Shown here: positions 24,231 through 46,736 of the stretch, piece by piece | How positions within the stretch are numbered: position 1 is the stretch's first letter | Layout: every line of letters starts with the position of its first letter | Sequence record: MN158208.1 | Strand: one strand, 5' to 3' | From: Escherichia phage BEK6 | Length of the DNA stretch: 46,736 nt | Notes under the pieces: generated by a model | Told to the model about the DNA's origin: nothing | Database searches by the model: none | What the model saw: only the letters and a program-made list of their open reading frames with translations | Made by a program: the position numbers and the translations under genes

Positions 24231-25196
24231 ATGACATTTACCGTATACACACGAGAAGAGTTAACCAACGATGCTTATCACTCAGAGACTGACCACATTT
24301 CCGGTAGCTCACTTGTCGAGATTATCCAGGGTTCGCCAGCTAAGTGGAAGTTTAAACAGCGCAACAATGATAGCAAGGCGCTCAAGTTTGGAACACTGAG
24401 TCACACGTACATCCTCGAAGGTGACATGTTTGATAAAGAATACCTTCGAGCTACAGACCTTGACGCGATTGAAGGATTAATTACAAGCCAGACCGGATTA
24501 TCTGCAGCGCTGAAAAAAGTTGGCGTAGCTGGCACGTCCGGGAAGAGCTATAGCGAACTCGTAGAGATGATGTATCGATCTGGTGAGGATTGGCCTGTTA
24601 AATGGCTAATTGAGCAGCAGGAGAGCGCTCAAGCGCTTGTGGATGGTAAGGAGCTAGTTAGTGCCGCTGACTACGATAAAGTTGTGGCTATGCGTGAGGT
24701 TCTTTGCAATATACCGGCATATAATGCAATCGTGAATAGTGAGACAGCGCAAAAAGAGCTATCAATCTTCGGTGAAATTCTCGAGGTTGGGGTTAAGATT
24801 CGAATTGACCACGTAGATGTTGTTGATGGCGTTGTTCGGATCACAGATTACAAAACTACCGCAGACGCTAGCCCAGAAGGCTTTGGCAAGTCAGCATTCT
24901 CGCACGGATACCTTGCAAAAATGGCGCTTCAGCGAGATCTTTTTGTGAAGGCATTCAACGAGAAGCGAAAGGTTGTTGTAGGATTGCTGGCACAAGAGAA
25001 AGTGGAGCCATACCTCCCCATGCTTTACACCTTGACGGATGAGCAGCTAAGAATCGGCCGATTGCAGTATCTTGAGGCTCTTGCCACATATAAGAAGTGC
25101 AAGGAGCTTGATATCTGGCCTGGCTACTCAAATGGCATTACAGAGCAAGAGCTATTGGTTCCTGATTGGGCATTAAAACAATACAAAGAAATCTAA
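24231..25196 (+). CDS. PD-(D/E)xK family exonuclease (recombination nuclease)
   Basis: RIDHVDVVDGVVRITDYKT core resembling the D...(D/E)xK nuclease motif; adjacent to ERF and SSB genes. Confidence 0.6.
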   Translation: MTFTVYTREELTNDAYHSETDHISGSSLVEIIQGSPAKWKFKQRNNDSKALKFGTLSHTYILEGDMFDKEYLRATDLDAIEGLITSQTGLSAALKKVGVAGTSGKSYSELVEMMYRSGEDWPVKWLIEQQESAQALVDGKELVSAADYDKVVAMREVLCNIPAYNAIVNSETAQKELSIFGEILEVGVKIRIDHVDVVDGVVRITDYKTTADASPEGFGKSAFSHGYLAKMALQRDLFVKAFNEKRKVVVGLLAQEKVEPYLPMLYTLTDEQLRIGRLQYLEALATYKKCKELDIWPGYSNGITEQELLVPDWALKQYKEI

Positions 25197-25214
25197 ATAG
25201 CACTAATTGCTAAA
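25195..25214 (+). promoter_or_regulatory. palindrome copy AAATAGCACTAATTGCTAAA in the ERF gene leader
   Basis: Overlaps exonuclease stop; followed directly by TACAAAAT, RBS and ATG 25236 (no -10-like hexamer). Confidence 0.45.
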
Positions 25215-25235
25215 TACAAAATTAAAAGGTGGTGT

Positions 25236-25919
25236 ATGATTACCCCATCAACGACGAACGAGGTTAATATGCAAATTTCAGAATCATGCAAATCAATTTT
25301 AAACGCGCTGCACACTGCCAAATCGCTATTTGCGAAGGCTGAAAAGTCTAAGCAGAACTCACACTTAAAGAACAAGTACGCTACCCTAGAAGACGTTTTG
25401 GCGGCCGTTGAGCCTGGTTTAGATGAGTGTGGGCTTGTTATGTTCCAGAGTGTACTTGATGATGAACAAACCAATCGCATGAAGGTTGAGACAAAACTGT
25501 TTCATGCTGAATCTGGAGAGTGGGTTAGCTTCTTGATGATCGTACCAATCAGTAAGAATGATGCACAAGGTTACGGCTCAGCTTTAACATACGCTCGACG
25601 TTACGGAATCACAGCGGCGTTAGGACTTAGCCAGGCAGATGATGATGGTAATCTCGCAGCGAAAGGTGTTAAGGACTTTAAGCGAGAGCTAGAGAAATGC
25701 AATACTCTTGATGAGCTTCGCAATGTCTGGAAGGAGGCTAAGCAGTCACTTGATGCGGCAGGATGGAAGGTTTTCGAACCCCACATCATAGAGCGAAAGG
25801 CAGAGATTGAAGCAAATGCAGCAACTGGCTTCAACCCAGCAGAACCAAAGAAAGTTGCAGAAAAAAGTAGTCCTGAAGAAAAGATTAAAGTAGAATCAAA
25901 ACAAATCGACACATTCTAA
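25236..25919 (+). CDS. ERF-family single-strand annealing protein
   Basis: Conserved ERF-like segments (KYATLEDV..., GSALTYARRYGITAALG); ATG 25269 is an alternative start. Confidence 0.65.
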   Translation: MITPSTTNEVNMQISESCKSILNALHTAKSLFAKAEKSKQNSHLKNKYATLEDVLAAVEPGLDECGLVMFQSVLDDEQTNRMKVETKLFHAESGEWVSFLMIVPISKNDAQGYGSALTYARRYGITAALGLSQADDDGNLAAKGVKDFKRELEKCNTLDELRNVWKEAKQSLDAAGWKVFEPHIIERKAEIEANAATGFNPAEPKKVAEKSSPEEKIKVESKQIDTF

Positions 25920-29982: not shown

Positions 29983-30456
29983 TTACTCTTTAGCTTTTCG
30001 TGCTGCTTCGTTAGCGGCCTTAATTTTGCGCCAGGAGCGACACTCCGGCTTGGTGGCTAACTCAGCCTCAGTAACCACACGCAGCATGTGGCGTTTTTTG
30101 CATCGTAGAGTTAGCGGCTTTCCGTTGCCATCGAATTGTAGATCTGGTCGGCAGAATGTAGCTCGAAAACCTTCTCCGGTTCGTTTGTAGTAGTTGTGCG
30201 ACAACTGAGCGCCACGCGCAGAAATCATACCACGCTTAAACCATTCTTCTACAGCCTGTGGTGTTACCTTTAACTGCTTTGCGATATTAGCCTTTGTGCC
30301 AAAGAAATCAAGGAGCATCTCAAGACGTGCTCGTAGCCCGGCCCTTACTTCATCTTTTAAAACGTAGTAACCTGAGGGTCGTTTTCGCTGTTTTTTGTCT
30401 TCAGTGCGGACTGTTCCGTTGTTGCCGTTAATGGTTCGCTTGTCTACTTCATTCAT
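29983..30456 (-). CDS. putative HTH DNA-binding protein
   Basis: 157-aa basic protein with helix-turn-helix-like segment GTKANIAKQLKVTPQAVEEWFKRG; first gene of the minus-strand primase operon. Confidence 0.4.
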   Translation of the reverse strand: MNEVDKRTINGNNGTVRTEDKKQRKRPSGYYVLKDEVRAGLRARLEMLLDFFGTKANIAKQLKVTPQAVEEWFKRGMISARGAQLSHNYYKRTGEGFRATFCRPDLQFDGNGKPLTLRCKKRHMLRVVTEAELATKPECRSWRKIKAANEAARKAKE

Positions 30457-41041: not shown

Positions 41042-41280
41042 CATTTCACCTCATCAAAAGTTGCAATCCCAGGAATAAACATCCCAACCTTCCAGCCAGC
41101 AATCGCAATCCAGCCAGAATCGTGCTTGTGCGGTCGCTCAGCGCCATTAATCAACCACTCGTTCGGGATTGTCTTCCCGTTAATGATTAGCGGCTCAGCT
41201 TCGTATACAGAGCCTTTTACGAATGGTGTTAATACTTTCTTGTCGGTGCTGGTGATACAGTTAGTGCAGCGAATTTTCAT
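41041..41280 (-). CDS. hypothetical protein
   Basis: 79-aa ORF with GAGG RBS, second gene of the minus operon from 41470. Confidence 0.4.
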   Translation of the reverse strand: MKIRCTNCITSTDKKVLTPFVKGSVYEAEPLIINGKTIPNEWLINGAERPHKHDSGWIAIAGWKVGMFIPGIATFDEVK

Positions 41281-41290
41281 ATCTCAATCC

Positions 41291-41470
41291 TCAAATAAAT
41301 GGTAGGCATTCGGCGCATCCAAGTCCATCACAGCACAGGAATTCATCCTCTGACTGGAATTGCTTAGCCAAGTCGATGTCCAGCTTTCCGCGCAACACAA
41401 GTTCTGTGTAATCTTCATTAAGCCCAATCAGTGCGCATTCGTGACGTAATTCATCTTTATCAATCTTCAT
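41291..41470 (-). CDS. hypothetical Cys-rich small protein
   Basis: 59-aa ORF (ends ...CCDGLGCAECLPFI) with GGGGAG RBS, preceded by palindrome/TATAGT/CTCATCAACAACGG module; below the track cutoff. Confidence 0.35.
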   Translation of the reverse strand: MKIDKDELRHECALIGLNEDYTELVLRGKLDIDLAKQFQSEDEFLCCDGLGCAECLPFI

Positions 41471-43311: not shown

Positions 43312-43443
43312 TTGACCATATACGAACATAAATTCAGTAGCAGGGGCATTGATATGCTCCTGCACTATGTAGACGAAAAATACGCAAATCACATGCTTAA
43401 GACGCATGGCGGAACAATGACGAGGGTTAACATAAATGTCTAA
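43312..43443 (+). CDS. hypothetical small protein (TTG start)
   Basis: 43-aa ORF after palindrome/TATAAT module with AAAGGAA RBS; 3' end overlaps the kinase start; speculative. Confidence 0.25.
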   Translation: MTIYEHKFSSRGIDMLLHYVDEKYANHMLKTHGGTMTRVNINV

Positions 43444-44053
43444 AGTCATCATTCTCAACGGTCCGGCTGGTGTAGGCAAAGACACGATCGGCAACGCTCT
43501 TGCGAAAGATTACAACTGCATCCCGACGAGCTTTAAGCGCCCTATGTTTGAGATCGCAGCTTCAATCCTTGGCCCTCGGGCGTTCAGCAAATTCATCACC
43601 GCTTATCACGACCGCGATCAGAAAGAGATTCCTTATGGATTCCTTGGTGGCAAGACCTGCCGCGAGTTCATGATTTGGATTGGCGAGTCGGTGGTCAAGC
43701 CGCTATTTGGCAACCAGCAATTCGCAAAGCTGATGAGCGAACATATCCGGATTTGTGACGAAGGCTCATGTTTTGTTTGCACTGATGGCGGTTTCCCTGA
43801 TGAGGTTATTCAGCTAGTGGAAGATGGTCACGACGTTACCGTTGTGCGCCTGTTTATGGATGGCAAAACCTTCGCAGGCGATAGTCGTAATTACATCCGC
43901 ATCAAGGAATCTCACTTCCCTGATTATAAAAAGTATCAGGAGCACAGCATTCACCTGGTTAATGGCGACATTGAAGGTGGTGTTTTGGCGGTGGTTCTTG
44001 CCTGCGGCCTGCAACCTCAGATTGACGAATGGGCGGACGATATTCCCTGGTAA
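43436..44053 (+). CDS. P-loop nucleotide/nucleoside kinase-like protein
   Basis: N-terminal Walker A IILNGPAGVGKDT; ~200 aa, typical small-kinase size. Confidence 0.6.
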   Translation: MSKVIILNGPAGVGKDTIGNALAKDYNCIPTSFKRPMFEIAASILGPRAFSKFITAYHDRDQKEIPYGFLGGKTCREFMIWIGESVVKPLFGNQQFAKLMSEHIRICDEGSCFVCTDGGFPDEVIQLVEDGHDVTVVRLFMDGKTFAGDSRNYIRIKESHFPDYKKYQEHSIHLVNGDIEGGVLAVVLACGLQPQIDEWADDIPW

Positions 44054-44126: not shown

Positions 44127-44219
44127 ATGAAGCAATATCCATCAAGCAATCACCATAACGGTCACGTCATGCAGTTCTATCGCCACAACCTGAAGACTAA
44201 GGGAGTATTTGGAAAATGA
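44127..44219 (+). CDS. hypothetical micro-protein
   Basis: 30-aa His-rich ORF ([30 protein letters not shown]) between the palindrome module and the next gene, ATGA overlap downstream; speculative. Confidence 0.25.
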
Positions 44220-44434
44220 TTACAATTAACCTGTCAGAGAAAGACGCAGCAATGCTTAAGTCCATGCTGTCAATCTTTGAGAAGCCAAATGAACGAGCAA
44301 TTTCAAAAGAGGTGATTGCTCAGTTCAACAATCAGCAGTTCGACGTAAGTGACTTCGAGTCATCACGTCAGTACGAGGCGCTTAGCGTCAATGCGGCATA
44401 CCTGACTAACTGGGATAAGGCGACAAAGAAATGA
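44216..44434 (+). CDS. hypothetical protein
   Basis: 72-aa ORF, translationally coupled to neighbours. Confidence 0.4.
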
Positions 44435-44616
44435 TTTACGTTCACACGTACTACACAGGCAAGTTTAATAGCGTTAAGCATGTTCGGGTTTATGATACCT
44501 TCCTTAAGGCCAGTAAGCAGATGGATGTTTTAGGTGGCACAATCAAGGCTTGTGAAGTAATTAAAGAATACAAATTAGGGTATTACTATGAAGCGCGGAT
44601 GGGTGTTGGTGGTTAA
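44431..44616 (+). CDS. hypothetical protein
   Basis: 61-aa ORF with ATGA overlap. Confidence 0.4.
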   Translation: MIYVHTYYTGKFNSVKHVRVYDTFLKASKQMDVLGGTIKACEVIKEYKLGYYYEARMGVGG

Positions 44617-44716
44617 CGGAAAAGTTATAGGTTATTTCGAAACAGAGGATGCAGCATGGTTGTATTGCGCAACCCACTGCGTTGGTGAGTTTAAATGCGA
44701 GTCAATAGAAGTAACT

Positions 44717-44735
44717 AATAGCACTAATTGCTAAA
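44717..44735 (+). promoter_or_regulatory. gene-boundary palindrome copy (AATAGCACTAATTGCTAAA)
   Basis: TATAGT at 44756-44761 (22-bp spacing) within GGGGTA...TACCCC hairpin; CATCGAAACGAAC leader. Confidence 0.5.
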
Positions 44736-44791
44736 ACAGTATTGGGGTAATTTGATATAGTTACCCCATCGAAACGAACGAGGAAGCGGAA

Positions 44792-44971
44792 ATGAAATTT
44801 CAACAGGGCGAGCCCAAGCTACAAGCTAACCACTTCGATGGCTACACAACATTCATCATCGCCCAGGCGTGCGGTATGCGAGATGAGCCTCAGGTTCACA
44901 CCATTCACTTGACCGAGGAGCAAGCTCGAGAGATGGCGTATGAAATTATTGAGCAATTGAATAAGATTTAA
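44792..44971 (+). CDS. hypothetical protein
   Basis: 59-aa ORF downstream of palindrome (44717-44735) / TATAGT (44756-44761) / CCCCATCGAAACGAACGAGG leader; below track cutoff. Confidence 0.35.
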   Translation: MKFQQGEPKLQANHFDGYTTFIIAQACGMRDEPQVHTIHLTEEQAREMAYEIIEQLNKI

Positions 44972-45020
44972 CGCGCCTAAAACGCATTCTAGCAAACTAT
45001 AATTTAAGTAAGGTGATTCT

Positions 45021-45182
45021 ATGATTAAGGTTGTCTATGTAGGTGAGAGTGATTATGTGGCGCTAATTCAGCGTGGTGATGTGTTTTTCGCAGAGATGAG
45101 TGATGATGGTAGTTGCTACATCGTAAAGAACAAGAATGGCGAAGATATCTACCTTTCAGAAGATGATGTTATAATTTACTAA
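45021..45182 (+). CDS. hypothetical small protein
   Basis: 53-aa ORF with AAGGTGA RBS; first of three overlapping small ORFs. Confidence 0.3.
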   Translation: MIKVVYVGESDYVALIQRGDVFFAEMSDDGSCYIVKNKNGEDIYLSEDDVIIY

Positions 45183-45307
45183 TGGATAACTACGAATCAC
45201 CAAGCCAGTGGTGTAAGAGAATGCAGGATGAAGCTATAAAGGTCGAAGAGGCGATAGCTTATTACGAGCTGGCTAAAATGTGGATGGAACGGGAGAAGAA
45301 AGAATGA
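45182..45307 (+). CDS. hypothetical small protein
   Basis: 41-aa ORF, TAATG overlap upstream and ATGA overlap downstream. Confidence 0.3.
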   Translation: MDNYESPSQWCKRMQDEAIKVEEAIAYYELAKMWMEREKKE

Positions 45308-45447
45308 GCTTCACTGAATATGTGATCGCATGTGAACGACTCGTCTTCGATATGAAGACTTTCCACTGGTTCATCATTAAGGATTTAATTAAGCCTTACA
45401 AGCGTGGTGTAACACCTGAGGCTTTTGTTAATTCATTCTATAAATAG
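45304..45447 (+). CDS. hypothetical small protein
   Basis: 47-aa ORF whose TAG stop lies inside the palindrome copy at 45442-45461. Confidence 0.3.
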   Translation: MSFTEYVIACERLVFDMKTFHWFIIKDLIKPYKRGVTPEAFVNSFYK

Positions 45448-45461
45448 CACGAATTGCTAAA
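45442..45461 (+). promoter_or_regulatory. gene-boundary palindrome copy AAATAGCACGAATTGCTAAA
   Basis: Contains the TAG stop of ORF 45304-45447; hairpin GCCATgtATGGC; TACAAT at 45482-45487 (22-bp spacing). Confidence 0.5.
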
Positions 45462-45517
45462 CGCAGCCGCCATGTATGGCATACAATCACCACATCAACA
45501 CAACGAGAGATTGAGAA

Positions 45518-45706
45518 ATGAGTTATTCAAAGATTTATGTAGTTTATGGGTATAATATAGGTGACGAAGATTCTATAAGCGTCATCGCATTCCCTAAAAG
45601 GTGTGAAGCTGAGTCATTCGTAAATTCAATGAAATGTAATGATAAGAGAGCATTTGATGAATACGATTTCGAAGAGATTGATTTTGCTGATACAACGAGA
45701 GATTGA
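45518..45706 (+). CDS. hypothetical protein
   Basis: 62-aa ORF downstream of palindrome/TACAAT module; leader ACAACGAGAGATTGAGAAATG. Confidence 0.4.
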   Translation: MSYSKIYVVYGYNIGDEDSISVIAFPKRCEAESFVNSMKCNDKRAFDEYDFEEIDFADTTRD

Positions 45707-45709
45707 GAA

Positions 45710-45949
45710 ATGTTCGGACTAAATGAAGCGATGTTTAACGCGGTAAAGCGCCAGGCTAAAAAGCTCAACGATAAGTATGAGTCACTAAGCAAGCTGGACC
45801 GCAAGAATGATAAGTTGGTTGCTGGTATCATCACTGAGATTTGGCAGCCTGTTTCTACAGTTATCAGTAGGGATCGATTTGTGTGGGTAGCTGGTTACTT
45901 GCGTGGACGAGTGGGTCATGACGAGAATGGGAATAGTCTTTATGAGTGA
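45710..45949 (+). CDS. hypothetical protein
   Basis: 79-aa ORF whose start context duplicates the leader of the preceding gene. Confidence 0.4.
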   Translation: MFGLNEAMFNAVKRQAKKLNDKYESLSKLDRKNDKLVAGIITEIWQPVSTVISRDRFVWVAGYLRGRVGHDENGNSLYE

Positions 45950-46028
45950 GCTAACAATCTGGTTTGTCGCAGGGCTTATTACTTGGGCTTACTTTTTAAT
46001 CTTTTAGGTGTGGGTTGTTAAAAATAGC

Positions 46029-46057
46029 TTGCATCACTGAACGGAATTATCTAACAT
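46029..46057 (+). promoter_or_regulatory. candidate sigma70-type promoter upstream of the tRNA region
   Basis: TTGCAT (46029-46034), 17-bp spacer, TAACAT (46052-46057). Confidence 0.3.
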
Positions 46058-46223
46058 TAACCACGTAGACAAACGAGGCCACCAAGTGGCAACGGCGCAC
46101 GGAGCGCAACTACTAAGTCCGTTGCTAATTAAGTAGCGTATGCGGCATTAAGACCTAGCGCAAATAGGCAGATTAACCGGCTGTATCAGGCAGCCCCGGA
46201 GCCGTAACCGGGACTCATTCAAA

Positions 46224-46301
46224 GCTCTGTTAGCTCAATTGGATAGCAGCAACGACCTTCTAAGTCGTAGGTTACTGGTTCGAATCCAGTGCGGAGCGCC
46301 A
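46224..46301 (+). tRNA. tRNA-Arg (anticodon UCU), with encoded 3' CCA
   Basis: Hand-folded cloverleaf: acceptor GCTCTGT/GCGGAGC, anticodon stem ACGAC/GTCGT with loop CTTCTAA (anticodon TCT), T-arm ACTGG-TTCGAAT-CCAGT, discriminator G then CCA; resembles enterobacterial argU-type tRNA. Confidence 0.75.
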
Positions 46302-46308
46302 AATCAAA

Positions 46309-46410
46309 CGTCGCGTTGCTAATGCTGGCCAAAGGGTGGAGCTTATACCTCCATAAAGCAATCTCCAGATAAGAGATGTAACGCAGGTTCGATTCCTGCC
46401 GCGACGACCA
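46309..46410 (+). ncRNA. tRNA-like element (non-canonical length; possibly a class II tRNA or degenerate tRNA)
   Basis: Perfect 7-bp acceptor pairing CGTCGCG/CGCGACG, canonical T-arm GCAGG-TTCGATT-CCTGC, discriminator A and CCA, D-loop-like GGCCAAAGGG, but ~99 nt with two candidate anticodon hairpins. Confidence 0.3.
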
Positions 46411-46425
46411 AAAAAGGAGTTCATT

Positions 46426-46608
46426 ATGTGGGATGTGAAGTTGTCCATTCGCTTAATGGGCCGCTCGTGCAAGAATTGCACTCAAGATTATATCGCGTCA
46501 GTTGCCGCAATCAGCGCTGAGGATGCGGTAGAGAAAGTAAAAGAGATGTCAGGCGCTGACCCTGATACTCACAAATTCCTCGTCTGCTACGTTCGCAAGC
46601 AAGACTGA
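46426..46608 (+). CDS. hypothetical protein
   Basis: 60-aa ORF with AAAAAGGAG RBS, followed by strong terminator 46670-46694. Confidence 0.45.
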   Translation: MWDVKLSIRLMGRSCKNCTQDYIASVAAISAEDAVEKVKEMSGADPDTHKFLVCYVRKQD

Positions 46609-46669
46609 CGCCGAATGGCTAGAAAAAAGTGTTATACCCTCGTTAAGTTTCGTTTCTCTCGTTGTTTTT

Positions 46670-46694
46670 AGCCCTCGCTTGAGGGCTTTTTTTC
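46670..46694 (+). terminator. rho-independent terminator
   Basis: AGCCCTC-gctt-GAGGGCT followed by TTTTTTT. Confidence 0.65.
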
Positions 46695-46704
46695 GTCTGC
46701 AATA

Positions 46705-46713
46705 TGGTATAAT
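46705..46713 (+). promoter_or_regulatory. extended -10 promoter element (TGgTATAAT) at the window end
   Basis: TGGTATAAT followed by AAAGGGGG RBS running off the window; would drive the ORF at position 1 if the genome is circularly permuted. Confidence 0.4.
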
Positions 46714-46736
46714 CTGACCTCAACAAAGGGGGATTT

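What the first reader, a model, noticed from the sequence alone, without database searches (positions are those of the whole stretch)
45021..45949. Chain of overlapping micro-ORFs and a duplicated 21-nt leader
Three ORFs (45021-45182, 45182-45307, 45304-45447) are linked by TAATG and ATGA start-stop overlaps, and the last ends within a palindrome copy. The next two genes (45518 and 45710) both start in the identical context ACAACGAGAGATTGAGAAATG (45500-45520 and 45692-45712), with the second copy doubling as the 3' end of the first gene. This indicates tight translational coupling and local duplication of the expression signal.
Basis: seen in the sequence. Interest (0 to 1): 0.35.

Follow-up and report, generated by a model that had tools for sequence, protein, structure and literature searches.

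The report
Small-gene insertion scar in T1-like phage
The overlapping mini-genes are real, conserved phage genes, and the duplicated 21-base leader marks where one extra small gene sits behind a promoter, in a spot that related phages leave empty or fill with other small genes; this is ordinary phage mosaicism with a tidy junction.

Summary
The window is a T1-like coliphage (Drexlerviridae, Braunvirinae).

**The micro-ORFs are real genes.** ORFs 45021-45182, 45182-45307 and 45304-45447 have PHROG families and pN/pS of 0.07-0.44. Their TAATG and ATGA overlaps are conserved in relatives. ORF2 has no Shine-Dalgarno sequence, so coupling to ORF1 is plausible.

**What the two copies of the 21-mer are.**
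- Copy 1 (45500-45520) is the 3' part of the 5' leader of one of 19 promoter-like cassettes. Each cassette starts with the known T1-family repeat aaATAGCACnnnTTGnTAAAA.
- Copy 2 (45692-45712) is the tail of an accessory 62-aa gene (33% GC).

**Comparative evidence.**
- Phage G8 and at least 9 other phages lack exactly this gene plus one repeat (192 bp).
- Other relatives carry at least 6 unrelated small genes in the same slot.
- All 11 loci with the 62-aa gene keep a leader remnant at its 3' end. It is usually 17-19/21; only the window has 21/21.
- The 62-aa gene precedes three different downstream genes.

**Verdict.** The repeat is the joint of a promoterless gene cassette. It was retained because it is the translation start region of the next gene. 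It is not a recent local duplication. Protein functions remain unknown. This is ordinary phage mosaicism with a neat variant; interest is low to moderate.

The parts
44715..44791 (+). Promoter-like cassette (DR element, TGATATAGT -10-like box, AC-rich leader) that heads the operon of the 59-aa gene and ORF1-3
   Evidence: DR match at 44718-44735. The cassette aligns with the other copies, and the start codon lies 76 nt downstream.
44792..44971 (+). 59-aa gene, first gene of the operon
   Evidence: phrog_7411, E 7.6e-33. pN/pS 0.05-0.15 in 13 relatives.
45021..45182 (+). ORF1, 53 aa, acidic; an accessory gene present in only some relatives
   Evidence: phrog_38524, E 2e-16. pN/pS 0.07-0.25. Absent from BEK2, 12210III, Rtp, phiA2-1 and EC3a; the homology break runs 45020-45207. 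Own SD AGGTGA, -4.8 kcal/mol.
45182..45307 (+). ORF2, 41 aa; its start overlaps the ORF1 stop (TAATG) and it has no SD
   Evidence: phrog_1312, E 3e-14. pN/pS 0.11-0.44. Anti-SD duplex +0.3 kcal/mol. TAATG is conserved in all 5 distinct ORF1-bearing sequences.
45304..45447 (+). ORF3, 47 aa; its start overlaps the ORF2 stop (ATGA) and its stop TAG lies inside the DR element
   Evidence: phrog_22596, E 1.3e-36 over 47/47 positions. pN/pS 0.07-0.32. ATGA is conserved in 11 distinct sequences.
45442..45462 (+). 21-nt DR element AAATAGCACGAATTGCTAAAC, the 'palindrome copy'; known T1-family repeat
   Evidence: 19 copies in the window. Consensus aaATAGCACnnnTTGnTAAAA, about 76 nt upstream of start codons, is described for phage TLS (PMC11447400). 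Here it lies 76 nt before the ATG at 45518.
45482..45487 (+). -10-like hexamer TACAAT (TATAAT in relatives), 22 nt after TTGCTA of the DR
   Evidence: Cassette alignment and relatives. The simple sigma-70 scan does not call it because the spacing is atypical. Promoter activity is inferred, not shown.
45500..45520 (+). 21-mer copy 1: the 3' part of the cassette's 5' leader plus the ATG of the 62-aa gene
   Evidence: Conserved at 19-21/21 in relatives whatever gene follows it.
45518..45706 (+). 62-aa accessory gene (gene62), acidic, 33.3% GC; the inserted cassette gene
   Evidence: Absent from G8 and other phages. 7 protein clusters and 11 loci carry it, always first behind the leader. GC 33.3% against 44.2% for the genome. 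AlphaFold model is beta-beta-alpha-beta with pLDDT 78 and a disordered tail at residues 58-62.
45521..45712 (+). The 192-bp indel relative to empty-slot phages (equivalently 45500-45691): gene62 plus one repeat copy
   Evidence: The two G8 alignments overlap on the same 21 nt of G8, L001 2281-2301. Sequences shown.
45692..45712 (+). 21-mer copy 2: the last codons and TGA stop of gene62, 3 nt, then the ATG of the 79-aa gene; the start region of gene79
   Evidence: Homologous positions in other gene62 loci match the leader at 17-19/21 (alignment).
45710..45949 (+). 79-aa conserved gene (gene79; its Rtp homologue rtp15 is annotated as similar to T1 gp59); in empty-slot phages it follows the leader directly
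   Evidence: phrog_303, E 9.5e-26. Rtp rtp15 annotation. pN/pS 0.00-0.38. Helical model, pLDDT 92.
45942..46007 (+). 21-aa hydrophobic ORF (MSELTIWFVAGLITWAYFLIF) overlapping the end of gene79 through ATGAGTGA
   Evidence: Conserved in relatives, pN/pS 0.13-0.36 in 15 comparisons.

Best explanation
This is the end of the small-gene region of a T1-like (Braunvirinae) phage. The region is built from short operons, each headed by a copy of a genome-wide promoter-like cassette: the DR element AAATAGCACnAATTGCTAAA, a -10-like box, then an AC-rich leader of about 30 nt.

**ORF1-3.** These are genuine small protein genes read as one unit. ORF1 was slotted in between the SD and ORF2. ORF2 now has no SD, so it most likely starts by termination-reinitiation at TAATG. 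ORF3 has its own SD plus an ATGA overlap.

**The 21-mer.** It is the leader and translation start region of the next cassette. A promoterless, AT-rich 62-aa accessory gene sits in the first position behind that leader. A second copy of the leader forms its 3' end (codons TTRD plus the stop), so the displaced 79-aa gene keeps its own start region. The stop lies 3 nt before that ATG, which also allows reinitiation.

**The slot.** The position is hypervariable. It is empty in many relatives and holds other small genes in the rest. The leader copy behind gene62 is homologous to the true leader of other phages. It therefore most likely serves as the crossover point that puts gene62 in front of whatever gene follows the leader, and lets gene62 be lost again. 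The phage's own exonuclease and Erf-like annealing protein are the likely catalysts.

**Shown:** the anatomy, the conservation, the indel and the alternative occupants. **Inferred:** promoter activity, coupling and the recombination route.
For: - **Identity of the phage:** best hits are Braunvirinae.
- **Cassette family:** 19 DR copies at a fixed distance of roughly 74-86 nt to the start codon. The DR is published for TLS, T1 and Rtp.
- **Genes are real:** PHROG families and pN/pS well below 1.
- **Coupling:** overlaps are conserved. ORF2 has no SD, and the leader's SD is weak at -3.0 kcal/mol.
- **Indel:** G8 equals the window minus 192 bp, with the two alignments overlapping on the 21-mer.
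- **Slot states:** empty in G8, DTL, IME253, L010, the three Piccard phages, ZL19, IMM-001, ES, AN_ECEAS and CY1. At least 6 unrelated occupants exist: Rtp rtp14, the BEK2/phiA2-1 36-aa gene, the OzMSK 56-aa gene, the FP/12210 gene of about 65 aa, the EC3a 46-aa gene and gene62. Leader-like second junctions occur in Rtp (15/21) and BEK2/phiA2-1 (14-15/21).
- **gene62 family:** 11 of 11 loci keep ACAACGAG... at the 3' end. gene62 precedes gene79 type A or B, an OzMSK-type gene (L025) or an EC3a-type gene (L012, with a 27-nt leader copy).
- **Signs of horizontal spread:** gene62 and gene79 identities are uncoupled. gene62 has low synonymous divergence (pS 0.09-0.25) against 0.3-0.7 for most comparisons of the flanking genes. 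Its GC is 33%.
- **Tail of the protein:** the leader-encoded tail is disordered in the model.
- **Recombination genes:** exonuclease VIII-like and Erf-like genes lie at 24231-25919.
Against: - No transcription or translation data exist. The -10 box sits 22 nt after the only -35-like hexamer, and the sigma-70 scan does not call a promoter there.
- The TTRD tail is conserved in all gene62 homologues (T60 and R61 invariant). It could therefore be native coding sequence under protein-level selection.
- The breakpoint between the two gene79 allele types lies inside gene79 at about 45740-45750, not in the leader. Only the L012 and L025 contexts, and the window's own 2-3-nt patch, place exchange in the leader itself.
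- 21-27 nt is short for efficient homologous recombination.
- Three occupant types (FP/12210, EC3a, OzMSK) show no leader remnant at their downstream junction. Leader duplication is therefore not the only way into the slot.
Confidence: 0.7

Rival explanations
1. This is a recent local tandem duplication of the ribosome-binding leader within this genome, selected so that two neighbouring genes share the same expression signal.
For: The two copies are 21/21 identical, while the closest gene62 relatives have 17-19/21 at copy 2. Something recent, such as a short conversion patch, did restore exact identity in this lineage.
Against: Copy 2 exists in decayed form in all 11 gene62 loci, down to 73% protein identity. 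The duplication therefore predates this genome. Between the copies lies a whole foreign gene with homologues, not duplicated DNA.
Confidence: 0.1
2. The 21-mer is a binding site (operator) for a phage translational repressor or small RNA, so that the 62-aa and 79-aa genes are co-regulated. On this view exact identity is under selection.
For: The leader is conserved at 19-21/21 across relatives whatever gene follows it, more tightly than most coding DNA nearby. Its SD is weak, so another recognition mode is conceivable.
Against: Copy 2 is degenerate in the nearest relatives without loss of the arrangement. No further copy exists in the genome at up to 3 mismatches. There is no Rfam hit and no unusual RNA structure, z = +0.82.
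Confidence: 0.08
3. The 192-bp unit is a miniature transposable or homing element, and the 21-mer is its target-site duplication.
For: The unit is a precise insertion flanked by direct repeats relative to G8. In L012 the flanking repeat at a different left junction is 9 nt (ATCAACACA).
Against: The unit has no terminal inverted repeats and no transposase or endonuclease. Repeat length varies from 9 to 27 nt between loci. The unit is found only in this one syntenic slot.
Confidence: 0.04
4. The micro-ORFs are not genes; the overlaps are chance features of non-coding DNA.
For: All are under 80 aa, none has a Pfam family at threshold, and no function is known.
Against: All five have PHROG family matches; that of the 62-aa gene is weak, E 2e-4. 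pN/pS is 0.05-0.44 across many relatives for ORF1-3, the 59-aa gene, gene79 and the 21-aa ORF. Start/stop overlaps are conserved. The AlphaFold models for the 62-aa and 79-aa genes are confident (pLDDT 78 and 92).
Confidence: 0.02

Closest known systems
PeSL (promoter-early stem-loop) mobile regulatory cassettes of T4-type phages (Arbiol et al. 2010, PMC2839356; Comeau et al. 2014, PMC4122927)
   Same: Short conserved regulatory sequences are repeated around small non-essential genes in variable regions. Indels between close relatives are bounded by the repeated motif. Recombination between the copies is proposed to shuffle genes.
   Different: The repeated piece here is only 21 nt of 5' leader and start region, with no promoter and no terminator stem-loop in copy 2. 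The family is T1-like, not T4-like. No mini-circles or recombination products have been observed.
Morons of lambdoid phages (Hendrix/Juhala concept; from my own knowledge)
   Same: An extra gene lies between two genes that are adjacent in relatives. It has atypically low GC and is presumably an accessory function.
   Different: Classic morons bring their own promoter and terminator. This gene has neither. It borrows the resident promoter and duplicates the resident leader.
21-nt direct repeat aaATAGCACnnnTTGnTAAAA of T1-like phages (TLS re-annotation, PMC11447400)
   Same: The 'palindrome copy' at 45442-45462 is a copy of this element. It has the same consensus and orientation, and the same distance of about 76 nt to the start codon.
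   Different: That paper describes the repeat and offers three guesses (stoperator, enhancer site, UP element). It does not describe the leader duplication or the variable gene slot behind it.
Translational coupling by overlapping stop/start codons (ATGA, TAATG) in phage and bacterial operons (general knowledge)
   Same: Same motifs and same compact layout. ORF2 lacks an SD, as expected for a reinitiation-dependent cistron.
   Different: Nothing unusual; dependence has not been measured here.
Integron cassette arrays (analogy only)
   Same: A resident promoter is followed by a site where unrelated promoterless genes accumulate, up to two in tandem (L012, L025). A repeated sequence sits between cassettes.
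   Different: No integrase and no attI/attC sites were seen. Exchange would rely on general or short-homology recombination.

Membership tests
T1-family DR element (aaATAGCACnnnTTGnTAAAA) | Match to the published consensus | tested here: met
   45442-45462 reads AAATAGCACGAATTGCTAAAC. 19 matches in the window at up to 3 mismatches, against 0.26 expected. Consensus.
T1-family DR element (aaATAGCACnnnTTGnTAAAA) | Oriented with transcription and about 76 nt upstream of a start codon | tested here: met
   76 nt from the DR to the ATG at 45518. The copies with an immediately following gene lie at about 74-86 nt.
Translationally coupled operon (termination-reinitiation) | Stop and start codons overlap or lie within a few nt | tested here: met
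   TAATG, ATGA, TGA-N3-ATG and ATGAGTGA. Conserved in relatives.
Translationally coupled operon (termination-reinitiation) | The downstream cistron lacks an independent SD | tested here: inconclusive
   ORF2 +0.3 kcal/mol (no SD); gene79 -3.0 (weak); ORF3 -7.4 (good SD).
Translationally coupled operon (termination-reinitiation) | Downstream translation depends on upstream translation | not testable with these tools
   Needs reporter fusions with upstream nonsense mutations, or ribosome profiling.
Moron | Gene present between two genes that are adjacent in related phages | tested here: met
   In G8, DTL, IME253 and L010 the leader joins gene79 directly.
Moron | Own promoter and terminator flanking the gene | tested here: not met
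   No DR or -10 cassette and no terminator lie between 45521 and 45712.
Moron | Base composition different from the surrounding genome | tested here: met
   33.3% GC against a 44.2% genome mean; below the 5th percentile of 189-nt windows.
PeSL-type mobile regulatory cassette | The repeated unit is a composite sigma-70 promoter plus terminator stem-loop | tested here: not met
   Copy 2 is leader only. The upstream cassette has a 5-bp hairpin without a T-run, and no terminator is called.
PeSL-type mobile regulatory cassette | Indels or replacements between relatives are bounded by the repeated motif | tested here: met
   The 192-bp indel is bounded by the 21-mer. gene62 is followed by leader remnants in three different downstream contexts.
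PeSL-type mobile regulatory cassette | Circular excision products (mini-circles) | not testable with these tools
   Needs outward-facing PCR on infected cells or virion DNA.
Transposable element / MITE | Terminal inverted repeats and a fixed-length target duplication | tested here: not met
   No inverted repeats in 45480-45730. Flanking repeat length is 9, 21 or 27 nt in different loci.
Integron | Integrase gene with attI/attC recombination sites | not tested
   Considered only as an analogy. No systematic search for a tyrosine recombinase was run. The ten large ORFs scanned include none.

The most novel reading that the evidence does not exclude
The leaders behind the DR promoter elements of T1-like phages may be dedicated landing pads. 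Promoterless accessory genes flanked by leader copies, such as the 62-aa gene, would then be mobile cassettes. The phage's own Erf/exonuclease system would insert, excise (perhaps as small circles) and swap them between co-infecting phages. That would make the slot an integrase-free, integron-like expression site and a predictable place to find new host-takeover or anti-defence genes.
Probability: 0.15. Interest if true: 0.55.

Novelty: new variant of a known kind. Interest (0 to 1): 0.27.

Why it matters
As it stands, this explains a curious repeat as a by-product of normal phage mosaicism and shows that the micro-ORFs are real genes.

The useful by-product is a defined hot spot in Braunvirinae genomes. 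It is the first position behind one DR-type promoter, where at least seven alternative states exist: empty, or one of six or more unrelated small genes. Variable early-gene slots like this are where host-takeover and anti-defence genes are usually found.

The exact leader repeat also gives a simple, testable handle on how T1-like phages gain and lose such genes: PCR across the slot in crosses or passages.

Finally, the finding adds context to the still unexplained DR element of T1-like phages. The DR always sits in a fixed register with a -10-like box and a conserved leader.

Tried and rejected
- **Protein function by sequence.** Pfam gave nothing at threshold for any of the ten small proteins. 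All PHROG hits are 'unknown function'.
- **Protein function by structure.** The AlphaFold models of the 62-aa protein (pLDDT 78) and the 79-aa protein (pLDDT 92) gave no significant Foldseek match in the PDB; best E values were 0.6 and 2.8.
- **RNA explanations.** Rfam at E up to 1 found only the tRNAs and chance hits. The mRNA at 45492-45760 is no more structured than shuffles, z = +0.82.
- **Leader as a general boundary sequence used all over the genome.** Rejected: no third copy at up to 3 mismatches. Only a related GAGGATTGAGATATG start region exists, on the minus strand at about 41275-41289.
- **Exact 21-mer elsewhere.** It is present in only two IMG/VR contigs, once each, both with an empty slot.
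- **The search for related loci with the 79-aa protein.** It returned only 7 loci, mostly known isolates.
- **Leader as the crossover between the two gene79 allele types.** Rejected: the switch lies inside gene79 at about 45740-45750.
- **Transposon or MITE reading.** Rejected: no inverted repeats, and the flanking repeat length varies.
- **Sigma-70 scan.** It does not call the cassette promoters because of the 22-nt spacing. Promoter function therefore stays an inference.
Full report
**1. Observation**

The region reads as the first-stage reader said.
- ORFs 45021-45182 (53 aa), 45182-45307 (41 aa) and 45304-45447 (47 aa) are joined by TAATG and ATGA.
- The ORF3 stop TAG lies inside ATAGCACGAATTGCTAAA at 45444-45461.
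- ACAACGAGAGATTGAGAAATG occurs at 45500-45520 and 45692-45712. There are no other matches at up to 3 mismatches and none in 100 shuffles.
- Copy 2 covers the last four sense codons and the TGA stop of the 62-aa gene ('gene62', 45518-45706), three bases, and the ATG of the 79-aa gene ('gene79', 45710-45949).

The chain is longer than reported. A 21-aa hydrophobic ORF (45942-46007) overlaps the end of gene79 through ATGAGTGA. ATGA overlaps also link the micro-ORFs upstream at 44127-44616.

**2. Context**

The window is a T1-like siphophage of Drexlerviridae/Braunvirinae. The nearest sequenced relative over this stretch is vB_Ec-G8 at 86.7% identity; others include Rtp, BEK2, FP, IME542 and the Veterinaerplatzvirus group.

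The 'palindrome' is a known element. The TLS re-annotation paper describes a 21-nt direct repeat, aaATAGCACnnnTTGnTAAAA. It is oriented with transcription, lies about 76 nt upstream of start codons, and is also present in T1 and Rtp. Its function is unknown; stoperator, enhancer site and UP element have been suggested (PMC11447400).

The window has 19 copies. Aligning them shows a larger cassette:
- the DR element;
- 22 nt that often contain a short hairpin;
- a -10-like box (TATAGT, TATAAT or TACAAT);
- a conserved AC-rich leader (…CATCGAAACGAAAC…);
- a start codon, typically 74-86 nt from the DR.

Copy 1 of the 21-mer is simply the 3' part of the leader of the cassette at 45442-45517. A simple sigma-70 scan does not call these promoters because TTGCTA lies 22 nt from the -10 box. 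Promoter activity is therefore inferred.

**3. The micro-ORFs are genes**
- Each of the five ORFs in the finding has a PHROG family, all of unknown function; the match for gene62 is weak at E 2e-4. Pfam gives nothing at threshold.
- Pairwise codon comparisons with up to 15 relatives give pN/pS of 0.07-0.25 (ORF1), 0.11-0.44 (ORF2), 0.07-0.32 (ORF3), 0.00-0.38 (gene79), 0.13-0.36 (the 21-aa ORF) and 0.05-0.15 (the 59-aa gene at 44792). gene62 is more relaxed, at 0.04-1.18.
- The overlaps are conserved: TAATG in all five distinct ORF1-bearing sequences, ATGA before ORF3 in eleven, and TATGAGTGA after gene79 in most.
- ORF2 has no SD (+0.3 kcal/mol against the anti-SD). ORF1 (-4.8) and ORF3 (-7.4) do have one, and the 21-mer offers only a weak GAGAG (-3.0).
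- Where ORF1 is absent (BEK2, 12210III, Rtp, phiA2-1, EC3a, IME542), ORF2 sits directly behind the SD that ORF1 uses here. ORF1 is thus itself an insertion. It took over the SD and left ORF2 dependent on reinitiation. This last step is an inference.

**4. What the duplication is**

In G8 the leader ACAACGAGAGATTGAGAAATG runs straight into gene79 (ATGTTCGGACTAAAT…). The two window-to-G8 alignments (44717-45520 and 45692-46736) overlap on the same 21 nt of G8. The window therefore equals G8 plus 192 bp, that is, gene62 plus one repeat.

The same empty state occurs in DTL, IME253 and the IMG/VR contig L010. By contiguous alignment it also occurs in JeanPiccard, JulesPiccard, AugustePiccard, ZL19, IMM-001, ES, AN_ECEAS and CY1.

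Other relatives fill the slot with unrelated small genes:

| Phage | Occupant |
|---|---|
| Rtp | rtp14, 60 aa |
| BEK2, phiA2-1 | 36-aa gene |
| OzMSK | 56-aa membrane protein |
| FP, 12210 group | gene of about 65 aa |
| EC3a | 46-aa gene |
| ACG-M12 | a further size class |

The downstream junction resembles the leader in Rtp (GAGATTGAGACATG, 15/21) and in BEK2/phiA2-1 (GGATTGAGAnATG, 14-15/21). It does not in OzMSK, EC3a or FP (6-10/21).

**5. The gene62 family**

A search of about 5.8 billion proteins found only seven clusters at 73-98% identity. Among sequenced phages, only IME542 carries the gene. I recovered 11 loci.
- In every locus gene62 is the first gene behind the DR cassette.
- In every locus its 3' end carries ACAACGAG…. 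The commonest form is ACAACGAGAGATTAAATAATG (18/21). L026 has 19/21 and IME542 17/21. L015 has drifted to a stronger SD (GAGGTGA). Only the window has 21/21.
- In L012 the leader copy is 27 nt long and is followed not by gene79 but by an EC3a-type gene. In L025 a leader remnant is followed by an OzMSK-type gene. In EC3a and OzMSK those same genes sit directly behind the true leader.
- gene62 therefore occurs in front of three different leader-proximal genes, each time with leader sequence at the joint.
- The left junction also varies. Most loci have the full leader. L012 and L027 switch after ATCAACACA to a different upstream sequence.
- gene62 and gene79 identities are uncoupled: IME542 94% and 71%, L028 93% and 73%, L026 88.5% and 94.5%.
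- gene62 has much lower synonymous divergence (pS 0.09-0.25) than most comparisons of its neighbours (0.3-0.7).
- It is AT-rich, at 33.3% GC against 44.2%.
- In the AlphaFold model (beta-beta-alpha-beta, pLDDT 78) the leader-encoded tail, residues 58-62, is the low-confidence end.

**6. Most likely mechanism**

*Shown:* a promoterless accessory gene occupies the first position behind a conserved promoter-like cassette, in a slot with many alternative states. A copy of the leader lies between it and the next gene.

*Inferred:*
- (a) Both genes are transcribed from the cassette.
- (b) Copy 1 starts gene62. Copy 2 starts gene79, either independently or by reinitiation after the TGA 3 nt upstream.
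- (c) Copy 2 persists because it is the start region of the downstream gene.
- (d) Copy 2 is homologous to the real leader of other phages. It is therefore the natural crossover site that moves gene62 in front of whichever gene follows the leader, and that allows precise loss between the direct repeats.
- (e) The window's 21/21 identity, against 17-19/21 in its closest gene62 relatives, is best explained by one short conversion or recombination event with a true leader rather than by three point changes.

The phage encodes an exonuclease VIII-like protein and an Erf-like annealing protein at 24231-25919. In well-studied phages such pairs recombine short homologies; this is my own knowledge.

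*Limits:*
- The switch between the two gene79 allele types lies inside gene79 at about 45740-45750, not in the leader.
- The TTRD tail is invariant at the protein level, so protein-level selection cannot be excluded.
- Three occupant types entered the slot without leaving a leader copy.

**7. Rivals**
- A recent local duplication is contradicted by the old, decayed copies in all relatives.
- A regulator-binding site is not excluded. It is unsupported, because copy 2 decays freely and there is no third copy.
- A miniature transposon is rejected: no inverted repeats and a variable repeat length.
- Non-coding ORFs are rejected by the substitution pattern.

**8. Comparison with known systems**

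The closest analogue in how it works is the PeSL cassette of T4-type phages, where repeated promoter/terminator units bound indels and mediate shuffling (PMC2839356, PMC4122927). The defining composite promoter-terminator is not present in the repeated unit here, so this is not a PeSL.

It is moron-like in position and composition, but it lacks its own promoter and terminator. The DR element is a member of the published T1-family repeat. The overlaps are textbook translational coupling.

**9. Dead ends**
- Fold searches of both models gave no significant PDB match.
- Rfam found nothing in the finding's coordinates.
- The mRNA is not unusually structured.
- The exact 21-mer occurs once each in only two IMG/VR contigs, both with an empty slot.

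**10. Verdict**

The micro-genes are real and conserved. The repeat is the joint of a gene-cassette insertion in a hypervariable, promoter-proximal slot. This is ordinary phage mosaicism with a neat, slightly new twist: leader-flanked rather than promoter/terminator-flanked. Functions remain unknown. Interest is about 0.27.

Noticed in passing
window 46309-46407 (+): A second tRNA-like gene lies directly after tRNA-Arg(TCT) at 46224-46301. The Rfam tRNA model scores 39.3 bits (gathering threshold 29), but ARAGORN misses it. It has anticodon loop CUUAUAC (anticodon UAU), an extra arm of about 27 nt with an AUCUC/GAGAU stem, and ends …GCGACGACCA. G8 has unrelated sequence at this position.
   Followed up: partly
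window 45942-46007 (+): A 21-aa hydrophobic micro-ORF (MSELTIWFVAGLITWAYFLIF) overlaps the gene79 stop through ATGAGTGA. It is conserved with pN/pS 0.13-0.36. In EC3a, phiA2-1 and FP another small membrane-protein gene is inserted between gene79 and this ORF. The TATGAGTRA junction is then present on both sides, making a second slot that follows the same 'reuse the junction' pattern.
   Followed up: partly
window, 19 sites (e.g. 15546, 25197, 33194, 33528, 44054, 44718, 45444; minus strand 22084, 40896, 41542): The DR element TAAATAGCACGAATTGCTAAA carries stop codons in all three forward frames: TAA at position 1, TAG at position 5 and TAA at position 18. Three upstream ORFs each use a different one (43436-44053, 45304-45447, 44588-44734). 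The DR always sits 22 nt before a -10-like box, often with a short hairpin between them (GCCAT..ATGGC; AAACCCGC..GCGGGTTT). This spacing is odd for sigma-70.
   Followed up: partly
L002 (phage FP) 1486-1800, equivalent to window 44715-44803: At the neighbouring DR cassette, FP carries an extra 70-aa gene between the leader and the 59-aa gene. The second junction (GTAGAGGAATGAAATTTCAA) again resembles the leader's SD region and has an ATGA overlap. The first position behind a DR leader may therefore be a general insertion point.
   Followed up: partly
window 45673-45681: A third copy of AGAGATTGA lies inside the invariant FEEIDF codons of gene62, 25 nt before the same 9-mer in leader copy 2. 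This may be a trace of microhomology in the original joining event, or chance.
   Followed up: no
window 41274-41291 (- strand): The start region TTTGAGGATTGAGATATG of a minus-strand gene contains the same 17 nt (TTGAGGATTGAGATATG) as the second junction in BEK2. GATTGAGAnATG is thus a recurrent start-region motif in this phage group.
   Followed up: no
window 46015-46223 (+): A non-coding stretch upstream of tRNA-Arg is 86-95% identical to relatives, which is more conserved than most neighbouring genes. It is preceded by TTGCAT-17 nt-TAACAT. There is no Rfam hit and no unusual folding, z = -1.18. It may be a tRNA precursor leader or an unknown RNA.
   Followed up: partly
window 29983-30456 (-) and 24231-25919 (+): A 157-aa protein matches the PHROG 'transcriptional regulator' family (phrog_2856, E 2e-84) and is a candidate binder of the DR element. 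Adjacent genes encode an exonuclease VIII-like protein and an Erf-like annealing protein.
   Followed up: no
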